A stretch of DNA of 64,000 bases from Patescibacteria group bacterium (GTDB taxonomy: Bacteria > Patescibacteriota > Patescibacteriia > UBA2591 > UBA4787), in NCBI GenBank assembly GCA_028715115.1, contig JAQUSN010000002.1, positions 132,944-196,943 on the forward strand. Reading direction: 5' to 3'. The notes under the pieces were generated by a model. It did not search any database, had not been told where the DNA came from, and worked only from the letters and a program-made list of their open reading frames with translations. Below, in pieces: positions 23,050 to 47,093 of this stretch. Both the position numbers and the translations under genes were made by a program. Positions within the stretch are counted from its first letter, which is position 1; each line of letters opens with the position of its first letter.

Positions 23050-23427
23050 GTGGACGAAGCCCTGATCGGATTGATTATCCCCAAGTCTCCTTGGGCTATG
23101 GCCAAGGAGGCGAATACGCTGGGTGCGCTGATAACCATACTGCGCACTTACTACTTCTTCATGGTGGGCGTGCGCGACTGGAGACAGGTCGCAAACAACA
23201 TCAACGAGACATCGGTGCAGATTGTGGAAGAAACATCCAGCTGCGTAAGAGCAGAGGTTGATTTCACGGTTATGACCGATGCAGGTCTCTTCATCGGCGC
23301 GATGGCCGTGCACGTCAAGGCGCTCAATGCAACTTTGGCCGACAGCAGAATGACACAGCTGTCGACCTGGCTACAAAGAGCGATCGGCAACAGTACGTTC
23401 GTTCAGGTGATCCTGAGGACGAGATAG
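23050..23427 (+). CDS. GC-rich hypothetical protein (125 aa).
   Basis: GTG start with AAAGGAG 5 nt upstream. Consensus promoter and downstream terminator. Visibly GC-rich. No motif recognised. Confidence 0.5.
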   Translation: MDEALIGLIIPKSPWAMAKEANTLGALITILRTYYFFMVGVRDWRQVANNINETSVQIVEETSSCVRAEVDFTVMTDAGLFIGAMAVHVKALNATLADSRMTQLSTWLQRAIGNSTFVQVILRTR

Positions 23428-25503: not shown

Positions 25504-25537
25504 TAACCCTAAGCGAGTCCTCGAGCGCAGGGTTACC
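25504..25537 (+). repeat. 34-bp repeat unit taaccctaagcgagtcctcgagcgcagggttacc (copy 2).
   Basis: About 30 of 34 positions identical to copy 1. Confidence 0.7.
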
Positions 25538-25621
25538 ATAATACTTTATTGAGTGAGTCTGCGAGCGCAGAGTAACCTTAATGCCTTATTGAGCGAGTCG
25601 CAGGGCAGCCATTTGAACATA

Positions 25622-25669: not shown

Positions 25670-27976
25670 TTATTTTAATCCGACCTGATAAACTTTTTTA
25701 TCATTTAAGATCCAGGCCGTATCAGCTTTATCGTTGATGACAAAATCAGTCGTAGCGCCCAGTTCCGGAGCGGAAATTTGTTTAATCAATTCTCCTGTTT
25801 TATCGAAGATAACCAATCTTTGGTTGGTCGGCTCTAAGACGTAAAGATATTTATGGTCAGCATCGGTGAAAATTTTAGTCGGCTTTTGCAAAACCGGCAA
25901 AATATTTTTCAGGTTAAAATTTTGTTTGGCCCCACGATAGAATTTTATCATTTGTCCGTTATCAAGCATTACATATATGGCTCCATCAGCGGCAAAAGAA
26001 ACTCCGTTGTTTATTCCGGCCGCGCTGGTCAGCCAATTTTCTTCTTTGCCAAATCCGCTGGCAGTTTTGGTGTATTTTAAAATCAATGAATCTTTAGCGT
26101 CTAGGATATAAAGTTTGTCAGCATATACCAGAAAATCTTGCATGGTCAAATTTTGATGGCTGGTCTGAAGGTCAATGCTGGTAAAATTATCATTAACGGT
26201 ATTATAAGTTGCCAGACCATTGTTGTTATGAGAAAAGAGTAGGGAGTCTTTATCGAGCGGCGTGATTTCTTTCAAGTATCCCACGTCGACCGAACCTTTG
26301 TGCGCCAGATCAACCTTGTTGGTAGCTAAGTCGATTTTATAAATATAATTATTGGTCGGGTTAAAGAAATAAAGGAAACTGCCCAGCTTGGTTAATCCGC
26401 CGACCGAGATTTGCTTATCAACCTTACTTAAATCAGCCACGAGTTTTAAATTCGAGCTTATTTCCTGGTGTAAAATCGGCGCAGCCTGTTTGTCGATATC
26501 GGCTTTTAACTCGTTATAAGCCGTTCTTTGCGCTTCAGTTTGTTGCGGCAAGGTTTTTAGGAGTATGGTTATTTGGCTATAAATGCTGGTAGCCTTGGCC
26601 TTATCTTTATAAATCAAAGCCGAATACATTTGTTGTTCTAGGTCTTTAATTTGTTGGATGGAAACGTTTGATTTTTTAGCGTTTTGGCGGTTAAATTCCT
26701 GGCGGCAGGCGATAATTAGGCCGGTGGTTAAGAGAATGGCCACAATTAACAAGAGAATAATCAACAGCCGTTGCAAAGGAGAAAACCGCTGCGAACGGGC
26801 AGAAATTTTACCAAAGATTTGTTTTGCTTTATTGGTCGTTGGCGTGGTGTTTGTTTTTTTAATGCTGTTAAATAAATATTTAACGCCGTGATAAATCGTT
26901 GCGCCAATAGTTAAAATAATTCTCCAGATTAATGGTGGCGGTGGCGGTTCGAGTCCGTCCGGTTTGCCGCCAATAGAAAGTTCTTGCAAAATAGCTTCAG
27001 ATTCTTCAGAGCTAACAGGAGTAACTTGGTTTTTTATTTTGGGAGAAACAATAGAACGGCTTTCTTCTTGGTCTTCGACAATAATTTTATCATCTTTTGT
27101 TTCTTCTGGATTTTCTTCGGCTGAAACTTCGGAAGCTTCCTCGTCTTTTTTTTCTTCAATTATTTTTTCAACCGGTTGTTTATTTTTTTTACCGCGTTTT
27201 TGTTTCTTAATTGGTTCGGGGATTGGGGTTGGTTCTGACTCAGGGGTTGATTCTGGTTCTTTAACTTCAGCTGGCGCTTCTTTGACCGGCTCGGATTTTT
27301 CTTCAAGCTCTTCTTTTATTATCGGATTTTTTATGGTGATTAAACCGAGTGAAACTTTCTGGCTGAATTTTTTGAGCGCGGCATTTAATTTTTTTATTGA
27401 AATTTCATTTTTGTCGCGCAGATTTTCTTCAATGGTTTCTTCCGGTAGATAATCGAACAGATTGCTGGTGCCAAAAAACAATTGGTCGTTGTCTTCGAGC
27501 GTGCCGCTGATGATATTGGAAAATTTTCTGCTTTTATTTTCTTGGCCGAGCTCAATTAACTCTCCGTTTTGTCCGAGATAGGCGAGTGGCGAACCAATTT
27601 GGGCAAAGTGCACGTTGGGAGAATCAAAAACAGCGATGATGACGTTAAGAGTTTTATCTTTTAGGTCATAACCGCTGAAAAATTTATTCAAGTCCTGCAA
27701 AAAACTTTCAAATCTTTCGTACACGCCGGTAAAAGGCGCCTCGGAACCGAAATAAGCTTCTTTGATTAGGGTGATTAATCCTTCACTTAAACCCTTGGTC
27801 CAAACCAGGTCTTCGGGCGTGGGCACCAGCTTATATTCAATTTCTAACAAAAAGCTCATTCTTTCTTTCTTGTCCGAGTTGTTAGTATCTCCATAATTAA
27901 AAGCAGACACAAACTTACGCGTTCGGTCTGGATTTGAAAGGGATACTTTTTCGATATTTATCTTGTAGTTATCCAT
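25670..27976 (-). CDS. Large membrane protein. It has an N-terminal cytoplasmic domain, a Pro/Glu/Lys-rich low-complexity linker, one TM helix and a C-terminal beta-propeller-like (NHL/YVTN-like) repeat domain.
   Basis: 768-aa ORF. Repeated L[YI]xLDxxxxxL motifs in the C-terminal third. PPPPP and EPxxE low-complexity stretch. Central hydrophobic helix. Confidence 0.6.
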   Translation of the reverse strand: MDNYKINIEKVSLSNPDRTRKFVSAFNYGDTNNSDKKERMSFLLEIEYKLVPTPEDLVWTKGLSEGLITLIKEAYFGSEAPFTGVYERFESFLQDLNKFFSGYDLKDKTLNVIIAVFDSPNVHFAQIGSPLAYLGQNGELIELGQENKSRKFSNIISGTLEDNDQLFFGTSNLFDYLPEETIEENLRDKNEISIKKLNAALKKFSQKVSLGLITIKNPIIKEELEEKSEPVKEAPAEVKEPESTPESEPTPIPEPIKKQKRGKKNKQPVEKIIEEKKDEEASEVSAEENPEETKDDKIIVEDQEESRSIVSPKIKNQVTPVSSEESEAILQELSIGGKPDGLEPPPPPLIWRIILTIGATIYHGVKYLFNSIKKTNTTPTTNKAKQIFGKISARSQRFSPLQRLLIILLLIVAILLTTGLIIACRQEFNRQNAKKSNVSIQQIKDLEQQMYSALIYKDKAKATSIYSQITILLKTLPQQTEAQRTAYNELKADIDKQAAPILHQEISSNLKLVADLSKVDKQISVGGLTKLGSFLYFFNPTNNYIYKIDLATNKVDLAHKGSVDVGYLKEITPLDKDSLLFSHNNNGLATYNTVNDNFTSIDLQTSHQNLTMQDFLVYADKLYILDAKDSLILKYTKTASGFGKEENWLTSAAGINNGVSFAADGAIYVMLDNGQMIKFYRGAKQNFNLKNILPVLQKPTKIFTDADHKYLYVLEPTNQRLVIFDKTGELIKQISAPELGATTDFVINDKADTAWILNDKKVYQVGLK

Positions 27977-32179: not shown

Positions 32180-32920
32180 GTGCTTATTCTCTACGCTTTT
32201 CTTTCGGCTCTTATTGTCAGCTTGATTTCGCTAATCGGCGTTTTTACTTTGAGTATAAAAAAAGAAGCACTGAATAAAATCGTTCACGTCTTGGTCGCTT
32301 TTGCCGTGGGCGGACTATTCGGCGACGCGATAATTCATTTGATCCCCGAAGCTTTTAAAACAAACCCCAACAGCTTATCAGTTTCATTACTAATTCTGTT
32401 GGGTATTTTTATTTTTTTCGGAATGGAGAAAATTTTGCGCTGGCGGCATTGCCACGAGAGTGATTGTCCCGAGCATCACCACTTGGCCACTATGAACTTA
32501 GTAGGCGATGCAGTGCATAATTTTATCGACGGTTTGATTATCGGCGTCAGTTTTATGGTCAGCTTACCGCTCGGCTTGGCAACTACCGTGGCAGTTGTTT
32601 TGCATGAAATTCCCCAGGAGGTGGCTGATTTTGGCGTACTGATTTATGCCGGCGTGCCGGTTAAAAAAGCCTTGGGTTATAATTTTTTGTCAGCCTTGTT
32701 GGCAGTTTTGGGGGTGGCCATGGCGGCCTTAGTCGGTAAATATGTGACGAACTTTTCTGATTTATTGATTCCAATTACTGCCGGCGGTTTTATCTATATT
32801 GCTGGTTCGGATCTGATCCCTGAACTTCACCATCAAACCCAAATATCGCATTTTCTAAAGCAATTAATCTTTATTTTGCTAGGCCTCGGCATTATGGTGC
32901 TTTTATTATTTTTAGGGTAA
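32180..32920 (+). CDS. ZIP-family metal transporter (ZupT-like).
   Basis: HNFIDGLIIG and VLHEIPQEVADFGVL motifs. Confidence 0.85.
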   Translation: MLILYAFLSALIVSLISLIGVFTLSIKKEALNKIVHVLVAFAVGGLFGDAIIHLIPEAFKTNPNSLSVSLLILLGIFIFFGMEKILRWRHCHESDCPEHHHLATMNLVGDAVHNFIDGLIIGVSFMVSLPLGLATTVAVVLHEIPQEVADFGVLIYAGVPVKKALGYNFLSALLAVLGVAMAALVGKYVTNFSDLLIPITAGGFIYIAGSDLIPELHHQTQISHFLKQLIFILLGLGIMVLLLFLG

Positions 32921-33006
32921 AATATAGACAAAAGTTAATATCAGGCGTTTTATTCGTGTTTTTGATAACAAGATTAGTATAATTATGAAATACTAATATT
33001 TAAATC

Positions 33007-33870
33007 ATGAATAATTTAAATCAAAATTTATATTCTCGTTTCGGACGGACAATTGATCTTGATAAAGTCCAGAATGGTTTTAAATTATGCGTTAAGAATG
33101 CGGCGCTTGAATATATAACGCCACTTTCCTATCTTAATGAAACAGATGAATTAATAGACATAAAAAATCAGACACTTAAAGAATTATGCCGACAAATGTT
33201 CGCAGATCAGGACAAATACAACAGCGTTTACGGACTCGAGTATTTTATAAAATCTCAACTTTATGACAGCATGGATCCTTTTCAAGAATCTCTTTTAAAA
33301 TTACAAATATTTTTGAATATTATTTTCCGTAATAATTCTAATAAATTATTACTCCATGAATTTAATCAATTTATTATAGAATTAGAAAAATATATTAGCG
33401 ACTTTCCAATTTTAGGAATAATGATTAAAAAATATAAATTAAAATCACCGCAGATTTTGCCCACTACCTCAAAAATATTCAAACAAAATATAAAAAATAC
33501 CTTAGGACTTTTAGAATTAAATGATAAATATAAGCATATACTTTCTTCTTTTGAAGATGGTTTAAAAGAATTTTTATCTGCCAAAACAATAGAAAAGTAT
33601 AAAAATGTTGTTGAAGACATGTATTCGGCTCTTGATGAGTTAGCAAAAGTTATATTTGATGATAAAAATAAGGGCTTTAAACATTTATTAAATAAAGAAA
33701 ATATAAAGTTATTCAGTTGTGGTTTTCAAAAAGAAATATATAACAATCTTCGTAAATGGATGGATCTTATTAAACATGGAACAAAAAAGGATCTTAATAA
33801 AAATGATATTGAGATAATCATTGATATGACGGGCAATTTAATTAGATTTATGATTTTAAAAATAAAATAA
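33007..33870 (+). CDS. Hypothetical all-alpha protein (accessory island gene 1).
   Basis: ORF in an extra-AT-rich block. No confident motif. Confidence 0.5.
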   Translation: MNNLNQNLYSRFGRTIDLDKVQNGFKLCVKNAALEYITPLSYLNETDELIDIKNQTLKELCRQMFADQDKYNSVYGLEYFIKSQLYDSMDPFQESLLKLQIFLNIIFRNNSNKLLLHEFNQFIIELEKYISDFPILGIMIKKYKLKSPQILPTTSKIFKQNIKNTLGLLELNDKYKHILSSFEDGLKEFLSAKTIEKYKNVVEDMYSALDELAKVIFDDKNKGFKHLLNKENIKLFSCGFQKEIYNNLRKWMDLIKHGTKKDLNKNDIEIIIDMTGNLIRFMILKIK

Positions 33871-33921
33871 TATTTAAATTTTATACCTAAAAAACATATT
33901 TAAATAATATAAAAAAGATTT

Positions 33922-35058
33922 ATGATAATTTCGGAACTAAAGGAAATATTTGGTTGGTCAACAGAAAGAGATGATTTTATTATCGGAAAAGATAGTTTTT
34001 CAGACCTGCAAATAAATTCGACACCATTTGAGCAATTTTATTATTTTTTTCATCAAAAAGACAGAAGACTAATAAAGCAATTTGTTCTTAACAAGGGTAA
34101 GCGAGTAGACCATATATGCAGAGTGGATCTTATAAAAAAAGATAGTAAATTTGCACCCCGATTATCATTTTCCATCCGCGATAAAGCAAGAAAAATAACA
34201 GAGCAAGAGGAGGCAGAAAAAACTAATATAAAAGCTAACGTTAGTTTATGTGATTGTTCTAATAATTTTTGGAAATTGATTTCTTTTCTTAAAACATTGC
34301 AGGACATAGAAATTCCAGAAGACAAATTCTCTCTTGTGTCTCAAAAAGAAGAAGAAATTGTATCTGCCCTGCATAATCGAGGATCAGGTAGTGTTTTAAA
34401 TATTATTAAACAACTTTCACAATCACCAGATATTTCCTTAACACAAGAAGATGTTAATTCTCTCTTAAAGAGAAGAGAGAAATTAATTAATTTCGAAGAG
34501 GCTCTAAAAAAATATCAAAGTGATGAAGGATGGTGGCAAAATTTTTTTGAACAAAATAAATGGATTTTTGGTTATGGTTTAAACTATGAAATTCTGAAGA
34601 ACCAACAATCACAGCCACATTATGGAGGCGATAAAGTTGATGGATCTGGCGGTCAGCGGGGCGACAACCTTATGTCTACAACTGGCGATTTAAATTTTAC
34701 AGTTTTGGTTGAGATAAAAACTCCAGCCACCAAGCTTTTACAGGGAGTGCAAGAAATTAGAAATGGTGCGTGGAGCTTGTCTAAAGATCTAACCGATGCT
34801 TTGTCTCAAATACTAGCGAACATTCAAACATGGGATAAATGTGGATCAGAGCAACCAGCGAATAGGGATAAACTCGAGAAAGATTCAGTTTTTACTATTA
34901 AACCAAAGGGCATTATTGTTATTGGCGCGCTGGGTCAGCTTGATGATAGAAATAAAAGAGAAACATTTCAACGTTTTAGAAAATCGGTTCACGGAATCGA
35001 TATTATTACTTTTGACGAATTATTTGAAAGAGCTCAATTTATTGTTCAAAGTGATTAG
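33922..35058 (+). CDS. Hypothetical protein with a C-terminal PD-(D/E)xK-like motif (GDLNFTVLVEIK); possibly DUF4263/Shedu-like.
   Basis: D...E.K arrangement in the C-terminal third, and the size. Assignment by eye only. Confidence 0.4.
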   Translation: MIISELKEIFGWSTERDDFIIGKDSFSDLQINSTPFEQFYYFFHQKDRRLIKQFVLNKGKRVDHICRVDLIKKDSKFAPRLSFSIRDKARKITEQEEAEKTNIKANVSLCDCSNNFWKLISFLKTLQDIEIPEDKFSLVSQKEEEIVSALHNRGSGSVLNIIKQLSQSPDISLTQEDVNSLLKRREKLINFEEALKKYQSDEGWWQNFFEQNKWIFGYGLNYEILKNQQSQPHYGGDKVDGSGGQRGDNLMSTTGDLNFTVLVEIKTPATKLLQGVQEIRNGAWSLSKDLTDALSQILANIQTWDKCGSEQPANRDKLEKDSVFTIKPKGIIVIGALGQLDDRNKRETFQRFRKSVHGIDIITFDELFERAQFIVQSD

Positions 35059-35066
35059 GGTTTTAA

Positions 35067-35627
35067 ATGTCATATTTAATGAAAAAATTAGGAGAAATAA
35101 AAATTGCGTGGTTGGTACTGTGGACTTGTTCTGGTCAAAACGAAGATGAATGTTTAAGAAAAGTAGGTATTTATGAAAAAGTTGCGGATATAATTAGTGC
35201 GAGGAAAGATTTTGACCAAATTATTGAAATTGCAAAAGATATTTATAAGCAAAAGATGCTCTCATTTTCAAAGAGGATTTATCTTTCTAATTATTCACTG
35301 GGGAATAAACGTAAGAAAGAATTTTTTAGCACAGAAGTTCCGGTTTTTACGCACTATCAATCTGATGTTTATAGAACTTTAATGAAATTAATTCAAGAAA
35401 AAGGGATTAAAAATAAAAAAGCAGAAAAGATGTCTGAAAGATGGAGTAGACATCCTCAATTCATAACGGTCGGACATAATCCATGCCTCGAAATAACTAA
35501 AGTGTTCAATTTATCTGTTTCTGAAGATAAAAATGGTGAGGAATTTTTAGAATGGGATCGTCTATTAGCAAGTGGTAATTTTAAGAGAGAAGAATATAGG
35601 CGCAAAAAAATAAATTATGGCCAATAA
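35067..35627 (+). CDS. Hypothetical protein (accessory island gene 3).
   Basis: ORF only. Confidence 0.4.
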   Translation: MSYLMKKLGEIKIAWLVLWTCSGQNEDECLRKVGIYEKVADIISARKDFDQIIEIAKDIYKQKMLSFSKRIYLSNYSLGNKRKKEFFSTEVPVFTHYQSDVYRTLMKLIQEKGIKNKKAEKMSERWSRHPQFITVGHNPCLEITKVFNLSVSEDKNGEEFLEWDRLLASGNFKREEYRRKKINYGQ

Positions 35628-36246
35628 ATATTTAAAGAGAAAGATTAGAAATTATGAAATATATAAAACAATGCTTATATCTATTTTGATGTGTTTGTCT
35701 TTTTTTACTGGCGAATATGTTTATTCTAAAAAATTTTTTGGTGATATTATAGTAAACATTATAGTGGGGCTGGTTCTTGGTATCATTGGTGCAATTTTGA
35801 CTATTATTTTTGAGAATTACATGATTAGTCAGGCTCGTTATAGAAAAGGGCTTGAATTGGAATCACAGGTAGAAGATAAATTAAAAAGACTAAGAATTAA
35901 ATATGAACCCCACCTAGAAGATGGTCACGGTGATTTGGATTTTTTACTTAGTGGAAATAATAATTTTTATGGGATAGAAGTTAAAAATCAATCAGGCCTT
36001 ATAAGATTTGAAAATAATAATCTTATGATTTCTAATTTTAAGAATACCTATATTTTAAAGAACTTATTAAAACACTGTAAACTAATTAGAGATATAAAAT
36101 TTGGAGATAGTTCAGATAGATTCATTAAACCCATACTCATTTTTGGTTATAAAGCTGTTGTTGATATCCCACAAAATAAGATCAAGTTCAATAATGTAGA
36201 AATTATAGTTGCCACTATTAATGATTTTGAGCGCTATATTATTTAG
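35617..36246 (+). CDS. Membrane-anchored NERD-domain (nuclease-related) protein.
   Basis: N-terminal TM helices. GDLDFLLSGNNNFYGIEVKNQSG matches the NERD / PD-(D/E)xK core (D..D.LL.G....Y.IE.KN.SG). Confidence 0.5.
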   Translation: MANKYLKRKIRNYEIYKTMLISILMCLSFFTGEYVYSKKFFGDIIVNIIVGLVLGIIGAILTIIFENYMISQARYRKGLELESQVEDKLKRLRIKYEPHLEDGHGDLDFLLSGNNNFYGIEVKNQSGLIRFENNNLMISNFKNTYILKNLLKHCKLIRDIKFGDSSDRFIKPILIFGYKAVVDIPQNKIKFNNVEIIVATINDFERYII

Positions 36247-36267: not shown

Positions 36268-36300
36268 GATTTTGCGTCCGCCTCCGCCCGTATTCTCAAT
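36268..36300 (+). repeat. 33-bp GC-rich direct repeat, left copy: gattttgcgtccgcctccgcccgtattctcaat.
   Basis: Matches 36881-36915 at about 28 of 33 positions. The core is CCGCCTCCGCCCG. Confidence 0.7.
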
Positions 36301-36336: not shown

Positions 36337-36882
36337 ATGATAAAAATAAAACGGGGAAGACAATTATCTAAAGAATTTATAAAGCAATGGAACACCGCTG
36401 TTGACAGAGAATTTGAATGTAATGAGTTTTTAGATCCACAAAAAAGAAATAGTTTTTCAAAAGATATTTTTTTCATACTTACTGAAAAGAAAAAGATAAA
36501 ATCAATAGCAAGAATAAAGGAATATTCTGTTATTTTTGAAGAAAAACGATATAAAGTCTTGGGCATTACGGATATGGTTTCTTTAAAAAAGGGTCATGGT
36601 TATGGGATAAAATTAGTTAAATCCATGATTAGATATATTAAAAAAACTAAAAAAACGGAAATAAGTTTCTGTCATCCAAAAAATACTAATTTTTATAAAA
36701 AAGGCGGATTTATAATTATAAAAAATGCAGTTAAACAGTTTTATTACAAAGATAAATCAGGTAAGGTTATAAAAAATAATTGGGATAAAGATCTCCTTTG
36801 TATAAATGGAACAGATAATCTAATAAATAAAATTAAATCTTATCCCAAACAAAAGATACAAATGTCAACCAAATTTTTCTGA
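36337..36882 (+). CDS. GNAT-family N-acetyltransferase.
   Basis: Motif A-like KKGHGYGIKLVKSMIRY. Confidence 0.55.
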   Translation: MIKIKRGRQLSKEFIKQWNTAVDREFECNEFLDPQKRNSFSKDIFFILTEKKKIKSIARIKEYSVIFEEKRYKVLGITDMVSLKKGHGYGIKLVKSMIRYIKKTKKTEISFCHPKNTNFYKKGGFIIIKNAVKQFYYKDKSGKVIKNNWDKDLLCINGTDNLINKIKSYPKQKIQMSTKFF

Positions 36883-36915
36883 TTTTGCCGCCGCCTCCGC
36901 CCGCATCTTAACCCT
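36881..36915 (+). repeat. 33-bp GC-rich direct repeat, right copy: gattttgccgccgcctccgcccgcatcttaacc.
   Basis: See the left copy. It starts at the GNAT stop codon. Confidence 0.7.
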
Positions 36916-36943: not shown

Positions 36944-37450
36944 ATGCTATTCAATATTTTATTTACCGTTATTGTTGGCTCGTTGCTCCATTTTACTTTT
37001 AATTTTGCCCACCAGGCCAAGATCGTCGGTTTGTTTTCGGCGGTCAACGAAAGTAGTTGGGAGCATTTGAAACTGGCAGTCATGCCCATGGCGCTCATTG
37101 CTTTATGGTGGGCGATTAACGGTAAGCGGAGGCCGAATAATTTTTGGCTATCGCGGGCCGTGGCCATGTATCTAGCGCCGATTTTAATCTTATTGATTTT
37201 TTACGATTACACAGCTATTTTAGGTAAGAATTATTTGCCTTTAGACATCAGCACGTTTATCCTGGCCGTTATTCTTGCTGAATTAGTCGCCAGATGGATT
37301 ACCAAAAAGCCAGAATTTTCCCGGCGCTATAATCCAATTTTTCAAGCCGCCATCATCCTTCTCGTAGCCATTTTCATAGTCTTTACCTTTTATCCGCCGC
37401 AAAATATTCTTTTCCTTGACCCCATCACCCTCACCTATGGTCTAAAATAA
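36944..37450 (+). CDS. Hypothetical polytopic membrane protein.
   Basis: Four to five hydrophobic helices. Confidence 0.5.
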   Translation: MLFNILFTVIVGSLLHFTFNFAHQAKIVGLFSAVNESSWEHLKLAVMPMALIALWWAINGKRRPNNFWLSRAVAMYLAPILILLIFYDYTAILGKNYLPLDISTFILAVILAELVARWITKKPEFSRRYNPIFQAAIILLVAIFIVFTFYPPQNILFLDPITLTYGLK

Positions 37451-37533: not shown

Positions 37534-37860
37534 ATGGTTAAAAACAAATCAATTGATATAAAAAAAATGCAGAAAATAGTTGATAATTGGGTGAAGACAA
37601 ATACCCAGGGATATTGGAAACCAAATAACATGATGTTAAGATTAATGGAAGAAATTGGTGAGCTTTCCAGAGCTATTAATCATAAATTTGGCGAAAAGAA
37701 AAAGAAATCTCAAGAAATCGATCAAGAAATTAGCCTGGAAATAGCCGATGTTCTTTTTGCCATAACTTGCATTGCTAATTCTTTGAATATAGATCTGACA
37801 GAAGCCTTTAAACGTATGATAGAAAAATATGAAAAGCGAGATAAATATCGCCATCGCTAA
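37534..37860 (+). CDS. MazG-like nucleotide pyrophosphohydrolase (small, single domain).
   Basis: EEIGELSRAI ... EIADVL motif. Confidence 0.7.
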   Translation: MVKNKSIDIKKMQKIVDNWVKTNTQGYWKPNNMMLRLMEEIGELSRAINHKFGEKKKKSQEIDQEISLEIADVLFAITCIANSLNIDLTEAFKRMIEKYEKRDKYRHR

Positions 37861-37877
37861 ATATTTTTTAATAATTT

Positions 37878-38516
37878 ATGAAACAAAAAGTTGTCGTATT
37901 TTCTCCACATCCTGATGATGACCTGATTGGATGCGGCGGCAGCTTGATTAATCACCTAAAAGAAGGGGCTGATGTTTTGGTCGTATATTTAACCTCCGGG
38001 GAATTAGGAACATTAGGCTATATCCCAAAAAAATTAGCTAAAATAAGAGAAACAGAAGCTAGAAGTGCTGCTAAAATTATCGGCCTTAAAAAATTGATTT
38101 TTTTAAGACAACCGGACAGCTGCTTAAAATTTACTAAAAAATTATTAGCCAAGGTTGTAAAAATTATTTCCCATGAAAAACCAAACATAATATATATACC
38201 TCACGCAAAAGAAAACAACGCAGATCATGTGGCTACATATAAAATAGTTAAATCGGCAGTTAAAAATGTTTTAACAAAAAAGGGCAATCGTATTGCCCCT
38301 ATTATTTTAGAATATGAAATTTGGACCACCCTACAGAATTATAACTATATCGAAGATATAAGCAGATCAATGAATCTTAAAATTTTAGCGCTTAAAAAAC
38401 ACAAGACTCAACTTATTTCTAAAAATTATGCCGAAGCGGCTAAAAATTTAGCGCGATATAGAGGAATTATGACCGGCAAAGGCAATTATGTAGAAGTATT
38501 TAAAATGATAAATTAA
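37878..38516 (+). CDS. PIG-L/LmbE-family N-acetylglucosaminyl deacetylase.
   Basis: VVVFSPHPDDDLIGCGGSL motif. Confidence 0.8.
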   Translation: MKQKVVVFSPHPDDDLIGCGGSLINHLKEGADVLVVYLTSGELGTLGYIPKKLAKIRETEARSAAKIIGLKKLIFLRQPDSCLKFTKKLLAKVVKIISHEKPNIIYIPHAKENNADHVATYKIVKSAVKNVLTKKGNRIAPIILEYEIWTTLQNYNYIEDISRSMNLKILALKKHKTQLISKNYAEAAKNLARYRGIMTGKGNYVEVFKMIN

Positions 38517-39697
38517 TGATGGCGAACAACATTTAAAAATGCCAGGAATTCATTCGCCCTTGAACTTGAATTAGTTTTTTTCATTAATTGTTGATAAGTA
38601 TTTTTAAAATCACTATATAATTCACAGTTGGCACAGGCGGGATAACTTCGTAGATTTACGGGGTTTGTTTTTTTTCTAAATTCAGCATATTTTACATTAT
38701 TCCAAATTTTAGAAAATTTTTCTTTATGAATGTTTCCCATACGATATTGTCGCCTTTTAGCGTCAAAAGCATCACCTCTGGTATCGTAATATAAATACAT
38801 ACAAGGAAACACAAATCCGTGGGCGTCAACCAGAGAATACATATAACACTTAAAGCAGGGCACAGGGTAATCTAAAAATAAATTTTTAACTCTCAGTCCG
38901 CGTCCATCATAATCTTTTCCCAGTTTTCCCTTTACCAGCATGTCGATAAATGGCGTAATATCCAATCGTTTGTCATTTTTAAAATTTTTAAGGAATTTTT
39001 TAATAAGAGGATAGTCTGATTTTAAGACGTTTAATCTTGGTTCTTCATGAATAGCCTCTATTCTTACTTCGTCTACGCCGAGTTTCTTGGCCAGACCTGA
39101 TAAGTGCGCAAGATCTTTGACATTATCTTTTTGTAAAACAAAATTAATTCTTATTTTAGTCTTATTGCTCGGTTTTTCTTTTCTAGATTTATTTAGTTCT
39201 TTTATAGATTTTATCACTTTATCAAACATGCCCGGTACACCCCTTATTTTATCATGTGTTTCTTTGGTAACGCCATCGACAGAAAAGCAGACATTGGCAT
39301 TATTTTTAACTAAACTTTTAATTATCGCTTTATTAAGATTAGTTCCGTTGGTATATGGAGCGGCCTCTAGGCCTAGAGTAGTGAGATGGTCAATTAATTC
39401 GGTAAAATCTTTTCTTAACGTAGGTTCTCCGCCGGAGAGAACAACGATTTTTGTTCCCATCTTTTTAACCTCAGTAAAAAGATTCTTTAATTCGCTAGTG
39501 GTTAGATCGCTGCCGGATTTTTTATAAGTTGACCATCGCCACCTTTTACACATTTGACAACGAGAATTGCATGTGTTAGTTATTTCAACCTGAAAGAGAA
39601 GGGGACCCAAAAAATTATGCAAATCATTAGATCTATAATGACATCTAAGTTGCTTTATAAAATTAGCATTAACATTTTTTTTAAATTTTATCGTCAT
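38513..39697 (-). CDS. Radical SAM protein with a C-terminal SPASM/twitch-like Cys cluster.
   Basis: CNSRCQMC (CxxxCxxC) and C-terminal CFKC...C...C..C cysteines. Confidence 0.8.
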   Translation of the reverse strand: MTIKFKKNVNANFIKQLRCHYRSNDLHNFLGPLLFQVEITNTCNSRCQMCKRWRWSTYKKSGSDLTTSELKNLFTEVKKMGTKIVVLSGGEPTLRKDFTELIDHLTTLGLEAAPYTNGTNLNKAIIKSLVKNNANVCFSVDGVTKETHDKIRGVPGMFDKVIKSIKELNKSRKEKPSNKTKIRINFVLQKDNVKDLAHLSGLAKKLGVDEVRIEAIHEEPRLNVLKSDYPLIKKFLKNFKNDKRLDITPFIDMLVKGKLGKDYDGRGLRVKNLFLDYPVPCFKCYMYSLVDAHGFVFPCMYLYYDTRGDAFDAKRRQYRMGNIHKEKFSKIWNNVKYAEFRKKTNPVNLRSYPACANCELYSDFKNTYQQLMKKTNSSSRANEFLAFLNVVRHH

Positions 39698-39704
39698 ATA
39701 TTTA

Positions 39705-40507
39705 TTAAAGCTTTTTAATTACAAGTAAAATATGACGGCCAGAACCTAAAATACTTTTTTCGGTACATGTATTTATCTCCAAGTCTATTAAGGCTTGCCA
39801 GTTTTTTTTAGATTTTTTTATTTTTGATAAATTTAATATTTCTATCTCAGAGCTGATGCCAGGAATAGTGGCCGTTTCTAATATTTTACAATTTAGTTTC
39901 GTAAAAAGATTAGTAAATTCATTAACGGTAAGTAGGCCTGTTTCAAATCCTTCGTGAAATTCTTTTGCTTTGCCGGTTTTAAATAGCTTTTTAGCACTAG
40001 AGATATCATCGTTCATTATATAGGCCCTTAGAAACCCCAGCTTACTATCAGCGCTAACGATCAATTTTCCATTGCGTTTTGTTACTCTAATCAACTCTTT
40101 TGCAGCGATACGCCTTTTTTCTAATGTATAAGAGATAGAATCTCCTAGACAGATAACAAAGTCAAAAGTATTATTTTTAAAACGACTTAAGTCAACAATG
40201 TCTCCTAACTCAAGCTGCACCTTTTTTAGTAAATGATTTTTTGTTATATTTTTTTCGCGATTGTTAGGCACTTATCAGAGATATCGAACAATATCACGTT
40301 TAAATTTTTTTTAGCCATTAAAATCGTATTATAACCCGTCCCACCTCCGGCATCGAGGACTAAACCAGTTTTGGGTATATATTTATTAATAAAATATCTA
40401 GGCAAAATAACCCTAAGAGAGCGGTCGTCTTGTTCGTCTTTATTTTCAGAGCAAGCGTAATTGTTCCAAAATGATTTTACTTTTTGGGGGTTGTATTTTT
40501 TTGGCAT
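39705..40507 (-). pseudogene. Frameshifted class I SAM methyltransferase, paralog of 16691-17527. The reading frame is broken at a T7 (A7 on the coding strand) tract at 40249-40255.
   Basis: Two overlapping ORFs (40244-40507 and 39705-40271) together align along the full length of the intact paralog. Adding one A would restore ...IAKKNITKNH... Confidence 0.6.
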
Positions 40508-40527
40508 AATGCTATAATTAATACTAT

Positions 40528-41412
40528 ATGGAACACCTCAATATATCTGTTATAATTGCGGTTTCCGACGACATTCTCATAAAAGAGTGCGTTGATAGTG
40601 TTGATGAAGACGTGGAAATAGTGATTGCTCTAAATGGAGCTACTTATGAAGTTGAAAAAATAGTAAAAAGTTTGAAAAACGTGAGATATGTCGAATTGCC
40701 GGAAAGAAATATCGGCAAGGCAAATAATTTAGCTATTAGCGCCGCTACGAATCAGCGGCTTATTTTTATGGATTCAGATTGTGTATTTACTCCCGGATCA
40801 ATCAGAAAATTATATTTTGGACTTGATGATTATAAAATAGCTAAGGGCAGAGTTCTATTTAAGCACAAAAATTTTGAGACGCGACTTGTAGCAAAAACCA
40901 GAGAAGTGAACACAACCACCGAACTTACAGCCTTTAAACCATGTCTTGCTATCAGAAAAGATTTAATTAACGATGTTGGTTATATCTTTGATGATGATAT
41001 ACATTTTCGAGAAGATTACGATTTGACCTGCCGTGTATTTGCAAAAAAGATACCTATAAAATTTGTGCCAGAAGCTAGCGTCTACCATACGCCGCTTCCT
41101 GTTTATTATGATTTAAGAAGCTCGTTTCGATATGGTTGCGGCCATCGAATTGGCATAAAAGAAGGTGTCCTTAAGGGATCATTGTTGTGGGGTGGCGATA
41201 AAAGTATTACAAATAGCTTATTATTGGATGCTAAAAGAATTTTTTATTGCCCAAGATATTTATTAAAGATAAAACGAACGAAGGGTGTTTTGGTGAGCCT
41301 GTATTCGATCATCTGGATGGCGAGCTTTACGTTGGGGTATTATTGTCAGGAAATGTTTAAGGTTTTTAAGGTTGAAGCGAAAAAATTATACAGACCTTGC
41401 AAGAATGTCTAG
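40528..41412 (+). CDS. GT2-family glycosyltransferase.
   Basis: GT-A N-terminus (ISVIIAVSDD) and DSD (DxD) motif. Confidence 0.8.
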   Translation: MEHLNISVIIAVSDDILIKECVDSVDEDVEIVIALNGATYEVEKIVKSLKNVRYVELPERNIGKANNLAISAATNQRLIFMDSDCVFTPGSIRKLYFGLDDYKIAKGRVLFKHKNFETRLVAKTREVNTTTELTAFKPCLAIRKDLINDVGYIFDDDIHFREDYDLTCRVFAKKIPIKFVPEASVYHTPLPVYYDLRSSFRYGCGHRIGIKEGVLKGSLLWGGDKSITNSLLLDAKRIFYCPRYLLKIKRTKGVLVSLYSIIWMASFTLGYYCQEMFKVFKVEAKKLYRPCKNV

Positions 41413-42600
41413 CCCCTCTTTAGCTGTTTTTTTATCAATATTTAGAGCAGGGAAGATAGTTAATTTATAAGGTCCACAATCAGAGATAAGAAGCCCATTT
41501 TTCTGGCAGTTTTTAACTATTTTAAGCGCATAATTCTTTTTATTAAATTCTATTCCAATAGCCAGTCCGGCAATTCTAATATTAGCCGGATATTTAAATT
41601 TCATTTCTTTTAATCTTTTAAAGAAATATTTATTCATTTTATCAACATTTTTAAATAATTGTTTTTTGTTATTTAAAATTATTTTTATATTTTTTAAGGC
41701 TAAATATACGCTCAAAGGGTGCCAACCAAACGTTGAGTAATAGCCGGTATTAAAATCAGAGACTGACTTAGCGATATTTTTAGTCATAATAGTCGCTCCT
41801 AATGGTCCGTAACCGCCACCGATTGCCTTGGCCATACATAATATATCTGGCTTTAGGTTATAATGCTCTGAAGCAAATAATTTGCCGGTTCTGCCAAAGC
41901 CGGTGGCGACTTCGTCGGCAATAAACAGGGTACCATATTTTTTACAAGCTTTTTGTACTATTTTATAGAATTCTTTTTCGGGAATCTCGACGCCTAAGTT
42001 CATGATGATTGGCTCAGAAATAAATGCGGCTACGTCTCTTTTTTTTAGTAATTTTTCGATTTGCTTTCCGGCCTTAGCGTTTAGGGGAGGGCTAATTTTA
42101 TAGCATTGCGGCATAAGATTTTTGTAGTACTTTCTAAATTTTGACGATCCAACACTCATAGCACCGATAGAATGTCCGTGATAAGCTCCTTCGATAGATA
42201 TAAATTTTTTTCTTTTTGTATAGGTCATGGCCGCTTGTATGGCAATTTCTACTGCTTCGGTTCCTCCGGTACAGCGAAAAGTTTTTACTAATTTTCCCGG
42301 TGTTATTTTAGCTAAAATTTCTGCTAGTTCAATCCAAGGTTTGTATAAATAATAAGGATTAACATAAAATGGCTCTTTAAATTTTTTAACCGCCTTTAAA
42401 ATTTCTTTTTTATTCCACCCAATATTACCGACGCACCAACCCATTAAAAAGTCTATATATTTTTTATGATTTTTATCATATAAAAAAGAATCCTCTGATT
42501 TAATAATTTCAAGAGGATTTAGAGGAGAGACTCTTCCCAAATATAGGCTATCCTTGCGTATTAAAGCCCCAGAGTTCATATGTGGATAATTATAGCACAA
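41386..42600 (-). CDS. Class III PLP-dependent aminotransferase.
   Basis: FIADEVATGFGRTG and the Lys region (CMAKAIGGG). Confidence 0.85.
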   Translation of the reverse strand: MCYNYPHMNSGALIRKDSLYLGRVSPLNPLEIIKSEDSFLYDKNHKKYIDFLMGWCVGNIGWNKKEILKAVKKFKEPFYVNPYYLYKPWIELAEILAKITPGKLVKTFRCTGGTEAVEIAIQAAMTYTKRKKFISIEGAYHGHSIGAMSVGSSKFRKYYKNLMPQCYKISPPLNAKAGKQIEKLLKKRDVAAFISEPIIMNLGVEIPEKEFYKIVQKACKKYGTLFIADEVATGFGRTGKLFASEHYNLKPDILCMAKAIGGGYGPLGATIMTKNIAKSVSDFNTGYYSTFGWHPLSVYLALKNIKIILNNKKQLFKNVDKMNKYFFKRLKEMKFKYPANIRIAGLAIGIEFNKKNYALKIVKNCQKNGLLISDCGPYKLTIFPALNIDKKTAKEGLDILARSV

Positions 42601-45276: not shown

Positions 45277-45654
45277 ATGTTCGAACGTGCAGATTCCGGA
45301 AGCGGTCATCGTTTCCCCGAACCGCCCGAGCCGGCAGAAAACTTCCGCTGGTTCATGGAAGCCAGCCATGCCCACCGCGTCCTACCGATCCGCGTAGTCG
45401 GTGGCCCCCTGAAGTCCCTTAACGGTGACGGGCTCTTGAGCCTTGAGTTCGCTCTGGCCCGCAGAAGCGGCCGCCGGAATGAGCCCATGGTCGCCGAGAT
45501 CCACGTCCTCAGTCACGAGCAGGTTACCGACAGCATGATGTCGGTAATCGGTCCGGTAGTCGCCGTTGACGGTTTGCGAACCGAGTCGCACCGGTCGGCG
45601 ACAATCACCTTCGATCACATCAAGCAGACGGGAACGTTGCGGTTTCTGCAGTAG
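45277..45654 (+). CDS. GC-rich hypothetical soluble protein (125 aa).
   Basis: AAAGGAGG 7 nt before the ATG. A perfect terminator lies downstream. One 60-nt stretch of the ORF counted by hand was 37/60 GC. Confidence 0.55.
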   Translation: MFERADSGSGHRFPEPPEPAENFRWFMEASHAHRVLPIRVVGGPLKSLNGDGLLSLEFALARRSGRRNEPMVAEIHVLSHEQVTDSMMSVIGPVVAVDGLRTESHRSATITFDHIKQTGTLRFLQ

Positions 45655-45669
45655 AGTTCCCGAGCACCC

Positions 45670-45702
45670 GAGCGCCGAGGTCCTCTCGGCGCTCTTCTTT
45701 TT
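45670..45702 (+). terminator. Intrinsic terminator (gagcgccgag / ctcggcgctc, loop gtcct, then a T-run).
   Basis: Perfect 10-bp stem. Confidence 0.7.
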
Positions 45703-45726
45703 ATATATTTTAAAACAAAAAGAGAA

Positions 45727-45754
45727 GGCGAGCCGCAAAGAACTGCGGCTCGCC
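45727..45754 (-). terminator. Perfect 10-bp hairpin (ggcgagccgc / gcggctcgcc) with a T-rich run on the minus-strand side. Candidate terminator of a minus-strand transcript from the 45.76-46.1 kb structured region.
   Basis: Seen directly in the sequence. Confidence 0.4.
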
Positions 45755-45757
45755 ATG

Positions 45758-45960
45758 TAACGGGAGGGCGGACCTGCCCACAAACGGTCGACTTGACTTT
45801 GCTCCCCTTGCCCAAGTCAGTGGTCGACTGTCCGCCTCCTGGCGTACCCCGTGAAGTACATCGATTCAGTCAATCCTGGCACATATTTCCGTCACAGGAC
45901 TCGCAGTAGAGTGACAGAAAAGCGCGGGTCCTTCGTTCACCACGCCCCAAAGGAGGTTAT
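45758..45960. other. GC-rich structured noncoding segment. It holds a long imperfect hairpin (gggagggcggac ... gtccgcctcc enclosing gtcgacttgactt / aagtcagtggtcgac) and further stem-loops. Candidate sRNA or cis element.
   Basis: No ORF has start signals. It contains an orphan AAAGGAGG with no start codon in range. Several long complementary segments. Confidence 0.3.
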
Positions 45961-46711: not shown

Positions 46712-46745
46712 GGGCGGGACTCCGGTTAGGGAGCCCCGCTTTTGA
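46712..46745. terminator. Bidirectional terminator between tspO (+) and the GC-rich minus-strand gene (gcgggactcc / ggagccccgc, then tttt).
   Basis: Imperfect GC stem with T-runs on both sides. Confidence 0.5.
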
Positions 46746-46762
46746 AAGCCGAACGGCCGCGA

Positions 46763-47044
46763 TCAGGTTGTGGGCTTGGGGGCGGGGACCACGTGGGCCC
46801 AGAAGTTGCAGCCCAGAGGGTCGCCGATCATGAGTGCATCACCGCGCCCCGGCTTCTTCTCGGAGATCACGAGAAAGCCTGTTCCGTTGGGCGGAGGGGA
46901 GACCCACCTCTGGTTCGTCGGATCGAAGCCGACCATTGCCTCGGAATAGGCCGGGCTTATCTCGTGGGGTTGAGAGGGGATGACGGTGCCGTCAGCGGGG
47001 AAGACAACCGTTCCGCTTACCGGCGTAGTTGCGCCTTCGGTCAC
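46763..47044 (-). CDS. GC-rich hypothetical protein (93 aa).
   Basis: GTG start with AAGGAGG 5 nt upstream. A TTGACA, 16 nt, TATATT promoter on the minus strand. GC-rich. Confidence 0.55.
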   Translation of the reverse strand: MTEGATTPVSGTVVFPADGTVIPSQPHEISPAYSEAMVGFDPTNQRWVSPPPNGTGFLVISEKKPGRGDALMIGDPLGCNFWAHVVPAPKPTT

Positions 47045-47093
47045 GAATACCTCCTTAGGGTAATGAATGTAGGGGACTTACTCGAACATTTAT

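What the first reader, a model, noticed from the sequence alone, without database searches (positions are those of the whole stretch)
33007..36246. Extra-AT-rich accessory block encoding putative nuclease-type proteins (a possible defense island)
Four consecutive hypothetical genes are noticeably more AT-rich than the flanking core genes. One (33922-35058) carries a C-terminal D...VLVEIK PD-(D/E)xK-like motif and a size compatible with DUF4263/Shedu-type nucleases. Another (35617-36246) is a membrane-anchored protein with a good NERD-domain core (GDLDFLLSG...YGIEVKNQSG). The first gene is all-helical and could be HEPN-like. None is a housekeeping function, and the block sits between a ZIP transporter gene and a cassette-like GNAT gene.
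Basis: partly seen in the sequence, partly recalled or inferred. Interest (0 to 1): 0.55.

Follow-up and report, generated by a model that had tools for sequence, protein, structure and literature searches.

The report
Small anti-phage defence island with Shedu
A 4-kb AT-rich insert in an ultra-small (Patescibacteria) bacterial chromosome carries a genuine Shedu anti-phage nuclease, a membrane-anchored NERD nuclease and two orphan genes that elsewhere sit inside restriction-modification operons, so it is an ordinary mosaic defence island with two uncharacterised candidate defence genes.

Summary
The four ORFs are at the stated coordinates. With the adjacent GNAT gene they have the five lowest GC3 values of the window's 63 ORFs (0.19-0.24 vs median 0.35).

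- **Gene 2 (33922-35058)** is a type I Shedu nuclease. It matches PADLOC SduA at E=5.8e-145 over its full length and Pfam SduA_C at 1.9e-30. Catalytic D248/E264/K266 align with solved B. cereus SduA.
- **Gene 4 (35617-36246)** is a membrane-anchored NERD nuclease, above the Pfam cutoff, with D..ExK invariant in 10 of 10 homologs.
- **Gene 1 (33007-33870)** is not demonstrably HEPN. It is a divergent member of the untested PADLOC candidate family PDC-S32. In 17 of 30 metagenome loci its homologs sit in or beside type I or III-like R-M operons.
- **Gene 3 (35067-35627)** is an orphan (48 Patescibacteria homologs, no family or fold match). It is nested in type I R-M operons in 2 of 5 other contexts.

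None of the four co-occur elsewhere, so this is a mosaic of independent modules, not one operon-system. No integrase, viral relative or R-M gene lies nearby. An empty-site test failed because no close relative was available. This is a new member of a known kind, of moderate interest, mainly for the two orphan families.

The parts
32921..33006 (.). Left boundary of the low-GC block: intergenic spacer after the ZIP transporter gene (32180-32920).
   Evidence: GC3 steps from 0.47 in ZIP to 0.21 in the next gene. No repeat or att-like sequence was found here.
33007..33870 (+). P1: 287-aa all-helical protein, a divergent member of the PDC-S32 candidate-defence superfamily. Conserved R11, H257, E269 and R280.
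   Evidence: 57 homologs with no Pfam domain. The profile reaches 216 clusters. 40 of 81 distant relatives hit PADLOC PDC-S32 at up to 1.8e-38. hhalign of A1 vs A3 gives probability 99.9%, E=5.7e-37. The AF2 model has pLDDT 91.5. Homologs sit between hsdS and hsdR.
33853..33911 (.). AT-rich ~25-nt imperfect tandem repeat (about 2 copies) in the P1-SduA spacer. It may be a promoter or operator region for sduA (inference only).
   Evidence: TRF rows, 82-83% matches; sequence. Promoter-like hexamers lie at 33880-33926, but the scan is at chance level for this AT-rich DNA.
33922..35058 (+). SduA: type I Shedu nuclease, with a variable N-terminal region (~1-190) and a C-terminal DUF4263 PD-(D/E)xK domain (200-367). 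Catalytic residues D248, E264 and K266.
   Evidence: PADLOC PDLC00391 E=5.8e-145 over residues 4-377. Pfam PF14082 E=1.9e-30. PDB 8TI8 E=5.7e-21 with the catalytic residues aligned. Full-length relatives on Streptomyces plasmids are annotated as Shedu.
35067..35627 (+). P3: 182-186-aa alpha/beta orphan protein. Its family is confined to Patescibacteria-type contigs and is repeatedly nested in R-M or defence loci. It overlaps the next gene by 11 nt.
   Evidence: 48 homologs at 48-68% identity with no Pfam domain. Contexts are L012 and L014 (inside type I R-M), L092 (defence island), L091 (after DUF5677) and L011 (solitary). There is no hit in Pfam, PADLOC, NCBIfam, PHROGs, PDB or BFVD. AF2 pLDDT is 80.6.
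35617..36246 (+). P4: membrane-anchored NERD-domain (PD-(D/E)xK-type) nuclease. It has a transmembrane helix at ~41-68 and a weaker hydrophobic segment at ~17-31. The nuclease core is E82, D106, D108 and E121-x-K123.
   Evidence: Pfam NERD 26.8 bits against a cutoff of 22.1. All 10 family members keep the motif. Kyte-Doolittle 19-residue maximum is 2.73. NCBI names it 'nuclease-related domain-containing protein'.
36268..36293 (+). GC-rich 26-nt direct repeat, copy 1 (GATTTTGCGTCCGCCTCCGCCCGTAT), 22 nt after the P4 stop codon.
   Evidence: the repeat finder family D7. Two matches against 0 expected by chance. No stable fold.
36337..36882 (+). GNAT acetyltransferase (181 aa). It has the lowest GC3 of the window and belongs compositionally to the block. 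It is bracketed by the 26-nt direct repeats.
   Evidence: Pfam Acetyltransf_9 E=1.8e-7, 31.6 bits against a cutoff of 25. GC3 is 0.19.
36881..36906 (+). GC-rich 26-nt direct repeat, copy 2 (GATTTTGCCGCCGCCTCCGCCCGCAT). It overlaps the GNAT stop codon and marks the right boundary of the low-GC block before DUF6512 (36944-37450).
   Evidence: Absent from 90 other loci.

Best explanation
The block is a small, horizontally acquired defence island in the chromosome of a Patescibacteria (CPR) bacterium. It is assembled from independent single-gene modules rather than forming one multi-gene system.

1. **SduA is a type I Shedu nuclease.** By homology to the studied E. coli and B. cereus enzymes, it should form an oligomer whose variable N-terminal domain holds the PD-(D/E)xK domain inactive. 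Phage-specific DNA features, such as free DNA ends, would then be recognised and the invading DNA nicked or cut.
2. **P4 is a membrane-tethered NERD (PD-(D/E)xK) nuclease.** It may degrade DNA at the inner face of the membrane, for instance on entry. This step is inferred.
3. **P1 is a divergent member of the PDC-S32 candidate-defence superfamily.** These genes normally sit between hsdS and hsdR of type I R-M operons, the same position as PrrC-type restriction-linked abortive-infection genes. Its conserved H257/E269/R280 cluster in the C-terminal helices suggests an enzymatic effector. The activity is unknown and this step is inferred.
4. **P3 is an orphan alpha/beta protein** that is likewise nested in R-M operons elsewhere. 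It is a further candidate defence or accessory gene with no mechanistic handle.
5. **The GNAT gene is a separate cassette-like insertion**, bracketed by 26-nt direct repeats.

Shown here: gene identities, catalytic residues, composition, and the independent distribution of the families. Inferred: anti-phage activity in this organism, and the mechanisms of P1, P3 and P4.
For: **Shedu identity.** PADLOC SduA E=5.8e-145 over the full length. Pfam SduA_C 106.5 bits. 8TI8 alignment with D/E/K conserved, and 8TI9 is the E-to-A mutant at that very position. Type I architecture and mechanism are taken from 10.1101/2023.08.10.552762 and 10.1101/2023.08.10.552793.

**NERD.**

**P1 and PDC-S32.**. Of 30 metagenome loci, P1 homologs are adjacent to type I hsd genes in 13, to type III-like mod/res genes in 4, to a type ISP enzyme plus a HEPN gene in 1, to an SLFN-like helicase in 1, and to an Abi_alpha-like gene in 1. 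PDC families were defined by embedding in BREX, DISARM and type I R-M systems (10.1101/2024.01.29.577857).

**P3 contexts.** Two of five other contexts are inside type I R-M operons and one is in an AlwI-RM/AAA_15-21/SocA island.

**Independence of the modules.** No locus other than the source contig carries more than one of the four genes.

**Foreign composition.** The five lowest GC3 values of 63 ORFs are contiguous.

**Chromosomal core flanks.** DnaE, ThrRS, ArgRS, ClpB and RNase J are in the window. No viral-contig relatives were found.
Against: - No experimental data exist for any of these genes, or for PDC-S32.
- The empty-site test failed for lack of close relatives, so 'acquired' rests on composition and patchy distribution.
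- No integrase, transposase or flanking att repeat defines the island as a whole.
- The genes are tightly packed and co-directional, and P3/P4 overlap by 11 nt. That would also fit co-transcription and some functional coupling.
- P1's own hit to a PDC-S32 HMM is weak (E=0.0029). Membership is established only through intermediate sequences.
- P1 and P3 have no fold match, so their 'defence' role is guilt by association.
- Some homologs sit among housekeeping genes (L009, L011, L077, L078).
Confidence: 0.72

Rival explanations
1. The genes form one or two co-functional multi-gene systems. Either P1 is a sensor or partner for SduA, giving a two-component Shedu like KELShedu, or P3 is an antitoxin, regulator or partner of the NERD nuclease, or both. 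They would be transcribed as one operon.
For: All genes are on the same strand with short spacers of 51 and 8-20 nt. P3 and P4 overlap by 11 nt. No convincing internal terminator was found. All share the same composition. Elsewhere P3's stop codon also overlaps a downstream effector-like gene: a HEPN gene in L014 and hsdS in L012. A two-component Shedu does exist (10.1101/2025.09.13.674623).
Against: None of 30 metagenome P1 loci, the P1 contexts, five P3 contexts or seven NERD-homolog loci shows the pairing. tblastn finds no second block gene in any of them. KELA is a 12.6-kDa DNA-binding protein 3 bp upstream of its nuclease, unlike the 287-aa P1 with its 51-nt gap. This SduA matches a single-gene PADLOC model over its full length. 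Gene overlaps are commonplace in compact CPR genomes (established knowledge).
Confidence: 0.12
2. The block is cargo of a decayed mobile element, such as a prophage remnant, an integrative element or an integron-like cassette array. In that case the nucleases would serve the element (exclusion or addiction) rather than host immunity.
For: The composition is foreign. The GNAT gene is bracketed by 26-nt direct repeats, like an attL/attR pair. Shedu genes are often on transposons (1,110 of 5,499) and prophages (121).
Against: No integrase, transposase or phage structural gene lies within +/-10 kb. The four families have no relatives on 2.9 million viral contigs. The repeats bracket only the GNAT gene, are not palindromic or attC-like, and do not fold. 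No repeat flanks the block as a whole.
Confidence: 0.1
3. The block is not a defence island. On this reading the low GC reflects weakly expressed or fast-evolving lineage-specific genes, and the nucleases have housekeeping or DNA-uptake roles. CPR bacteria scavenge nucleotides, and a membrane-anchored NERD nuclease could process imported DNA.
For: A second low-GC stretch with biosynthetic genes follows at 37.5-42.6 kb, so low GC is not specific to defence. NERD homologs elsewhere sit among non-defence genes (L017, L021). Some P1 and P3 homologs are solitary among core genes. CPR bacteria cannot synthesise nucleotides (general knowledge; also stated in the abstract listed).
Against: SduA is a full-length member of an experimentally validated anti-phage family with intact catalytic residues. 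P1 and P3 homologs are strongly associated with R-M operons. The sharp GC3 step at both edges, next to native-composition genes, argues for acquisition.
Confidence: 0.06

Closest known systems
Type I Shedu (SduA; B. cereus 8TI8/8TI9, E. coli SduA)
   Same: Both have a C-terminal DUF4263 PD-(D/E)xK domain with aligned D/E/K catalytic residues. Both have a long variable N-terminal region, a size of ~380 aa (type I mean 386 aa), a single-gene architecture and a defence-island setting.
   Different: The N-terminal ~150 residues do not align with the solved B. cereus protein; the alignment starts at residue 152. The sensed signal may therefore differ. The host is a Patescibacteria MAG. Full-length relatives on annotated plasmids are only 30-34% identical.
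PADLOC PDC-S32 (candidate single-gene defence found by 'guilt by embedding', Payne et al., bioRxiv 10.1101/2024.01.29.577857)
   Same: P1 is homologous over its full length to proteins that hit the PDC-S32 HMMs. Its family shows the defining behaviour of nesting inside type I R-M operons.
   Different: P1 itself barely scores on the HMM (E=0.0029). It belongs to a ~290-aa Patescibacteria-type subfamily at about 23% identity to the PDC-S32 group. This copy is not embedded in an R-M system, and there is none in the window. PDC-S32 itself is untested.
Restriction-linked abortive-infection genes (PrrC/RloC type) embedded in type I R-M operons
   Same: They share the genomic position inside hsd operons, often translationally coupled, for both P1 homologs (hsdS-P1-hsdR) and P3 homologs (hsdM...P3-hsdS). 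Payne et al. cite PrrC as the archetype found almost only embedded in type I R-M.
   Different: There is no sequence or fold similarity to PrrC or RloC, no ABC-ATPase domain, and no anticodon-nuclease or HEPN motif. The analogy is positional only.
NERD-domain nucleases in defence contexts (e.g. HEC-02, an ATPase plus NERD pair, Payne et al.)
   Same: Both carry a NERD PD-(D/E)xK-type domain with a conserved D..ExK motif. HEC-02 shows that a NERD-containing system can give anti-phage activity.
   Different: P4 is a small single-domain protein fused to N-terminal membrane helices, with no partner ATPase. It matches no PADLOC model. Its ~10 homologs are not consistently in defence islands.

Membership tests
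Shedu (SduA) | DUF4263 / SduA_C domain above the curated threshold | tested here: met
   PF14082 scores 106.5 bits against a cutoff of 27, over residues 200-367.
Shedu (SduA) | Full-length match to a defence-finder SduA model | tested here: met
   PADLOC PDLC00391 E=5.8e-145 over residues 4-377 of 378. Seventeen further SduA models also hit.
Shedu (SduA) | PD-(D/E)xK catalytic residues aligned with a solved SduA | tested here: met
   D248, E264 and K266 align with the B. cereus D...E-I-K. 8TI9 carries the E-to-A mutation at that position, and E264A is catalytically dead.
Shedu (SduA) | Type I architecture: long N-terminal region followed by C-terminal DUF4263 | tested here: met
   378 aa, with the domain at 200-367. 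The type I mean is 386 aa.
Shedu (SduA) | Oligomeric nuclease that protects against phage | not testable with these tools
   Needs biochemistry and phage assays.
NERD nuclease | Pfam NERD domain above the gathering score | tested here: met
   26.8 bits against a cutoff of 22.1, over residues 78-176.
NERD nuclease | Conserved acidic residues and an ExK motif of the PD-(D/E)xK core | tested here: met
   E82, D106, D108, E121 and K123 are invariant in 10 of 10 family members.
   19-residue Kyte-Doolittle windows reach 2.73 at residues ~41-68. The segment is conserved as hydrophobic in all homologs. This was a hydropathy test only; no dedicated topology predictor was run.
HEPN (proposed for P1) | Rx4-6H motif at the start of the last helix | tested here: not met
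   The only superfamily-wide histidine (H257) is directly preceded by K or R. R249 lies 7 residues before it and is not conserved. The conserved arginine (R280) is 23 residues downstream in another helix.
HEPN (proposed for P1) | Profile similarity to any HEPN family | tested here: not met
   No HEPN Pfam, NCBIfam or PADLOC hit for P1 or for 81 distant relatives. No HEPN chain appears in PDB profile searches at E<=10. hhalign against a PF05168 HEPN protein gives probability 0.1%.
HEPN (proposed for P1) | Four-helix up-down bundle fold similar to solved HEPN domains | tested here: inconclusive
PDC-S32 (PADLOC candidate) | Match to the PDC-S32 HMMs | tested here: inconclusive
   P1 alone scores E=0.0029 on PDLC04997. 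However, 40 of 81 profile-detected relatives hit PDLC04998 at up to 1.8e-38, and the P1 family aligns to them with hhalign probability 99.9%. This shows superfamily membership. A direct family call was not reached.
PDC-S32 (PADLOC candidate) | Embedded in R-M, BREX or DISARM operons | tested here: met
   This holds for the family: 13 type I and 4 type III-like of 30 loci. This particular copy is not embedded, and the window has no R-M genes.
Two-component Shedu (KELShedu) | Small DNA-binding partner gene immediately upstream that co-occurs with the nuclease | tested here: not met
   KELA is 12.6 kDa with a 3-bp gap. P1 is 287 aa with a 51-nt gap and never co-occurs with SduA in 30+ loci.
Integron gene cassette (GNAT) | attC-type imperfect palindrome downstream of the ORF | tested here: not met
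   The 26-nt flanking repeats are direct, not inverted, and the regions do not fold better than shuffled sequence (z = +0.3 to -1.9).

The most novel reading that the evidence does not exclude
P3 (and, less strongly, the P1 subfamily) may be a previously undescribed anti-phage or R-M-accessory protein family specific to Patescibacteria. P3 has a fold with no detectable relative among the solved and viral-protein structures searched and is absent from PADLOC, Pfam and NCBIfam. It is typically nested inside type I R-M operons and translationally coupled to variable downstream effectors (HEPN, hsdS, NERD). That pattern would fit a portable sensor or regulator module that plugs into different nucleases.
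Probability: 0.3. Interest if true: 0.55.

Novelty: new member of a known kind. Interest (0 to 1): 0.38.

Why it matters
CPR/Patescibacteria have tiny genomes. According to a groundwater survey they show a high density of defence systems per Mb but few systems per genome, and they may hide systems that current tools miss (PMC12259885).

This locus shows a canonical Shedu nuclease in such a genome. Next to it are two well-conserved orphan families (P1 with ~216 clusters, P3 with ~48 homologs) that elsewhere live inside R-M operons. That is exactly the 'guilt by embedding' signature used to nominate new defence genes. If they are functional, they would add CPR-specific entries to the defence catalogue and give two small, confidently modelled proteins for testing. 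The Shedu and NERD calls themselves are routine annotation.

Tried and rejected
1. **HEPN assignment for P1.** Rejected. There is no Rx4-6H motif and no profile hit. The only support is a weak Foldseek hit to 2hsb.
2. **Two-component Shedu (P1 + SduA).** Rejected on lack of co-occurrence and dissimilarity to KELA.
3. **P3-NERD as a conserved pair.** Rejected. NERD homologs have other upstream genes (a GIY-YIG 80-aa ORF in L021, an unrelated 79-aa ORF in L017, not similar to each other). P3 homologs have other downstream genes.
4. **Empty-site test via ZIP-anchored loci in 185,579 species genomes.** The best ZIP identity was 51%, with no synteny and no block homologs, so the test was uninformative.
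5. **Phage origin.** No relatives of P1, P3, SduA or NERD were found on viral contigs. PHROGs gave only a Shedu-like hit.
6. **Fold searches.**
   - Foldseek against PDB for P1 and P3, and against BFVD for P3, gave nothing at E<=0.001.
7. **Attachment site or structured RNA at the GC-rich repeat.** There are only two copies. No fold and no Rfam family were found, and it does not occur in other loci.
8. **Promoter and terminator scan.** Counts were at chance level in this AT-rich DNA, so it says nothing about operon structure.
9. **Literature and supplement search for 'PDC-S32'.** No description was found.


Full report
**1. Observation.** All are on the + strand. The spacers are 51 nt and 8-20 nt, and P3 and P4 overlap by 11 nt.

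GC falls to 0.24-0.35 across 33-37 kb, against 0.40-0.42 immediately upstream and 0.376 for the window. At third codon positions the step is abrupt. ZIP has GC3 of 0.47. P1, SduA, P3, NERD and GNAT have 0.21, 0.24, 0.23, 0.22 and 0.19. DUF6512 has 0.51. These five genes have the five lowest GC3 values among the window's 63 ORFs. The chance that the five lowest are contiguous is about 8e-6.

The window is a chromosome segment of a Patescibacteria MAG (GCA_028686935.1, contig JAQUBC010000012.1). It carries core genes including DnaE, ThrRS, ArgRS, ClpB and RNase J.

**2. Gene 2 is a bona fide Shedu nuclease.** It matches PADLOC's SduA model PDLC00391 over its full length (residues 4-377, E=5.8e-145) and 17 other SduA models. 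It also matches Pfam SduA_C/DUF4263 (E=1.9e-30, 106.5 bits against a cutoff of 27).

It aligns to the solved B. cereus SduA (8TI8, E=5.7e-21). D248, E264 and K266 lie opposite the catalytic D...E-x-K. The 8TI9 entry carries the E-to-A substitution at exactly that column, and E264A is the published catalytically dead mutant.

Its size and layout, a long N-terminal region followed by C-terminal DUF4263, are those of type I Shedu (mean 386 aa). Full-length relatives at 30-34% identity on Streptomyces plasmids are annotated as Shedu.

By homology, the mechanism is an oligomeric PD-(D/E)xK nuclease. Its N-terminal domains auto-inhibit and sense invader DNA, through free DNA ends in E. coli SduA and activation by loss of N-terminal-domain inhibition in B. 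cereus. The N-terminal ~150 residues here do not align to the solved protein, so the trigger may differ.

**3. Gene 4 is a membrane-anchored NERD nuclease.** Pfam NERD scores 26.8 bits against a cutoff of 22.1. In an alignment with its nine non-identical database homologs, all Patescibacteria-type, residues E82, G-D106-L-D108, G119-x-E121-x-K123-N124 are invariant. A strongly hydrophobic helix (residues ~41-68, Kyte-Doolittle 2.73) and a weaker one (~17-31) precede the domain.

It hits no PADLOC model. Its homologs are not consistently in defence neighbourhoods. A defence role is therefore plausible, since a NERD-containing system, HEC-02, has been validated, but it is not shown.

**4. Gene 1 is not demonstrably HEPN, but it is defence-associated.** P1 has no Pfam, NCBIfam or PHROG family. 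It has 57 close homologs of uniform length (~290 aa). An exhaustive profile search finds 216 clusters.

Of 81 distant relatives, 40 hit PADLOC PDC-S32 (best E=1.8e-38) and 13 hit a second PDC-S32 model. The P1 family aligns to them over 264 columns with hhalign probability 99.9% (E=5.7e-37). P1 alone scores only E=0.0029. PDC families are untested candidates nominated because they are embedded in BREX, DISARM or type I R-M operons (10.1101/2024.01.29.577857).

I verified that behaviour for the P1 subfamily.
- Three of four look-ups place it between hsdS and hsdR with overlapping stop and start codons.
- Among 30 metagenome loci, 13 are adjacent to type I hsd genes.
- Four are adjacent to type III-like mod/res genes.
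- One is adjacent to a type ISP enzyme plus a HEPN gene.
- One is adjacent to an SLFN-type helicase.
- One is adjacent to an Abi_alpha-like gene.
- Most of the remainder are too short to judge.

The AlphaFold model is confident (pLDDT 91.5, pTM 0.88) and is all-helical with one beta-hairpin. Foldseek against the PDB gives nothing significant. A HEPN domain (2hsb) appears only at rank 15 (probability 0.60, E=2.1).

The residues conserved across the superfamily are R11, H257, E269 and R280. There is no Rx4-6H motif, no HEPN profile similarity, and no resemblance to the KELShedu partner KELA. I therefore reject HEPN membership. An enzymatic effector is still possible.

**5. Gene 3 is a true orphan.** It has 48 homologs at 48-68% identity. 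There are no hits in Pfam, PADLOC, NCBIfam, PHROGs or PDB profiles, whether for the single sequence or for all 47 family members. The AlphaFold model is an alpha/beta protein (pLDDT 80.6) without a Foldseek match in PDB or BFVD.

Its five other contexts are as follows.
- L012 and L014: inside type I R-M operons between hsdM and hsdS.
- L092: an island with an AlwI R-M, AAA_15/21 ATPases and SocA/Panacea.
- L091: directly after a DUF5677 gene.
- L011: solitary.

In three contexts, including this window, its stop codon overlaps the start of a variable downstream gene: HEPN, hsdS or NERD.

**6. Architecture.** None of the P1, P3 or NERD loci examined contains a second member of the quartet. The window has no R-M genes. 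The block is therefore a mosaic of independent modules, not a conserved operon-system.

No integrase or transposase is nearby. None of the four families is found on viral contigs.

The GNAT gene (Acetyltransf_9, E=1.8e-7) is bracketed by a 26-nt GC-rich direct repeat at 36268-36293 and 36881-36906 (23 of 26 identical; 0 expected by chance). The repeat does not fold, has no other copy, and matches no Rfam family. This suggests a separate insertion event but remains unexplained.

**7. What could not be done.**
- The test against close relatives failed. ZIP-anchored loci from 185,579 species genomes reach only 51% identity and share no synteny.
- Promoter and terminator scans are at chance level in this AT-rich DNA.

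**8. Verdict.** Shedu is certain, NERD is solid, and the HEPN guess is not supported.

The Shedu and NERD components are known kinds. The modest novelty lies in two conserved orphan families (a P1/PDC-S32-like subfamily and P3). In Patescibacteria these behave as R-M-embedded genes, and here they are found detached, next to Shedu. Interest is moderate at 0.38. Novelty class: new member of a known kind.

Noticed in passing
window 36268-36293 and 36881-36906: A 26-nt GC-rich (~69% GC) direct repeat, GATTTTGC(G/C)(T/G)CCGCCTCCGCCCG(T/C)AT, brackets the GNAT gene exactly. Each copy begins at or just after a stop codon. There are only two copies in the window and none in 90 other loci. It has no stable fold and no Rfam hit. 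It may be an attL/attR-like scar of a single-gene insertion.
   Followed up: partly
window 23050-23427, 45277-45783, 46742-47095, 47198-47629: There are several 0.4-kb patches of 0.54-0.60 GC (GC3 up to 0.70) in a 0.376-GC window. Their ORFs have no Pfam hit. No tRNA is found, and no Rfam family even at E<=0.1. Their nature is unexplained; they could be foreign DNA, unannotated structured RNA or novel genes.
   Followed up: partly
window 37534-42600: A second, milder low-GC stretch (GC3 0.26-0.33) lies just after the native-composition DUF6512 gene. It encodes a small MazG, a PIG-L deacetylase, a radical-SAM/SPASM protein, methyltransferases, a GT2 glycosyltransferase and an aminotransferase. 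It is probably a separately acquired glycan or peptide-modification cluster.
   Followed up: no
window 25512-25599: A 40-nt tandem repeat (2.2 copies, 81% matches) with a GC-rich unit, AGCGAGTCCGCGAGCGCAGAGTAACC..., lies just downstream of the 768-aa ORF 25670-27976(-). That ORF has no Pfam family.
   Followed up: no
L003/L004, L012, L014 (type I R-M operons of Patescibacteria-type contigs): These hsd operons are packed with several embedded small ORFs besides the P1 and P3 homologs. L003 has DUF2321 and ORFs of 252, 198, 400 and 144 aa. L012 has ORFs of 89, 175 and 189 aa. L014 has a 446-aa ORF, a 208-aa HEPN gene, a 222-aa ORF and DUF4268. They are a rich source of further 'guilt-by-embedding' candidates.
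   Followed up: no
L017-L019 (NERD homolog P0112) and L078 (P1 homolog): The NERD homolog in a Komeilibacteria genome lies ~4 kb beyond the 3' end of a ZIP + Fur gene pair. This echoes the ZIP gene bordering the block here (ZIP identity 36%). One P1 homolog sits near a Cation_efflux zinc transporter. This could be coincidence or a recurrent insertion hotspot next to metal-transporter genes.
   Followed up: no
window 33853-33911: An AT-rich ~25-nt imperfect tandem repeat (about 2 copies) lies in the spacer between P1 and sduA, overlapping promoter-like hexamers. It could be a regulatory site for sduA.
   Followed up: no
contig SRR32573209_2126 (L011): A P3 homolog (P0083) and a P1 homolog (P0029) both list a longest contig of 29,249 bp, so they may lie on the same contig. 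The 14.5-kb stretch fetched around P3 contains no P1 homolog, so they are at least several kb apart. That contig also carries an AbiEii gene.
   Followed up: partly
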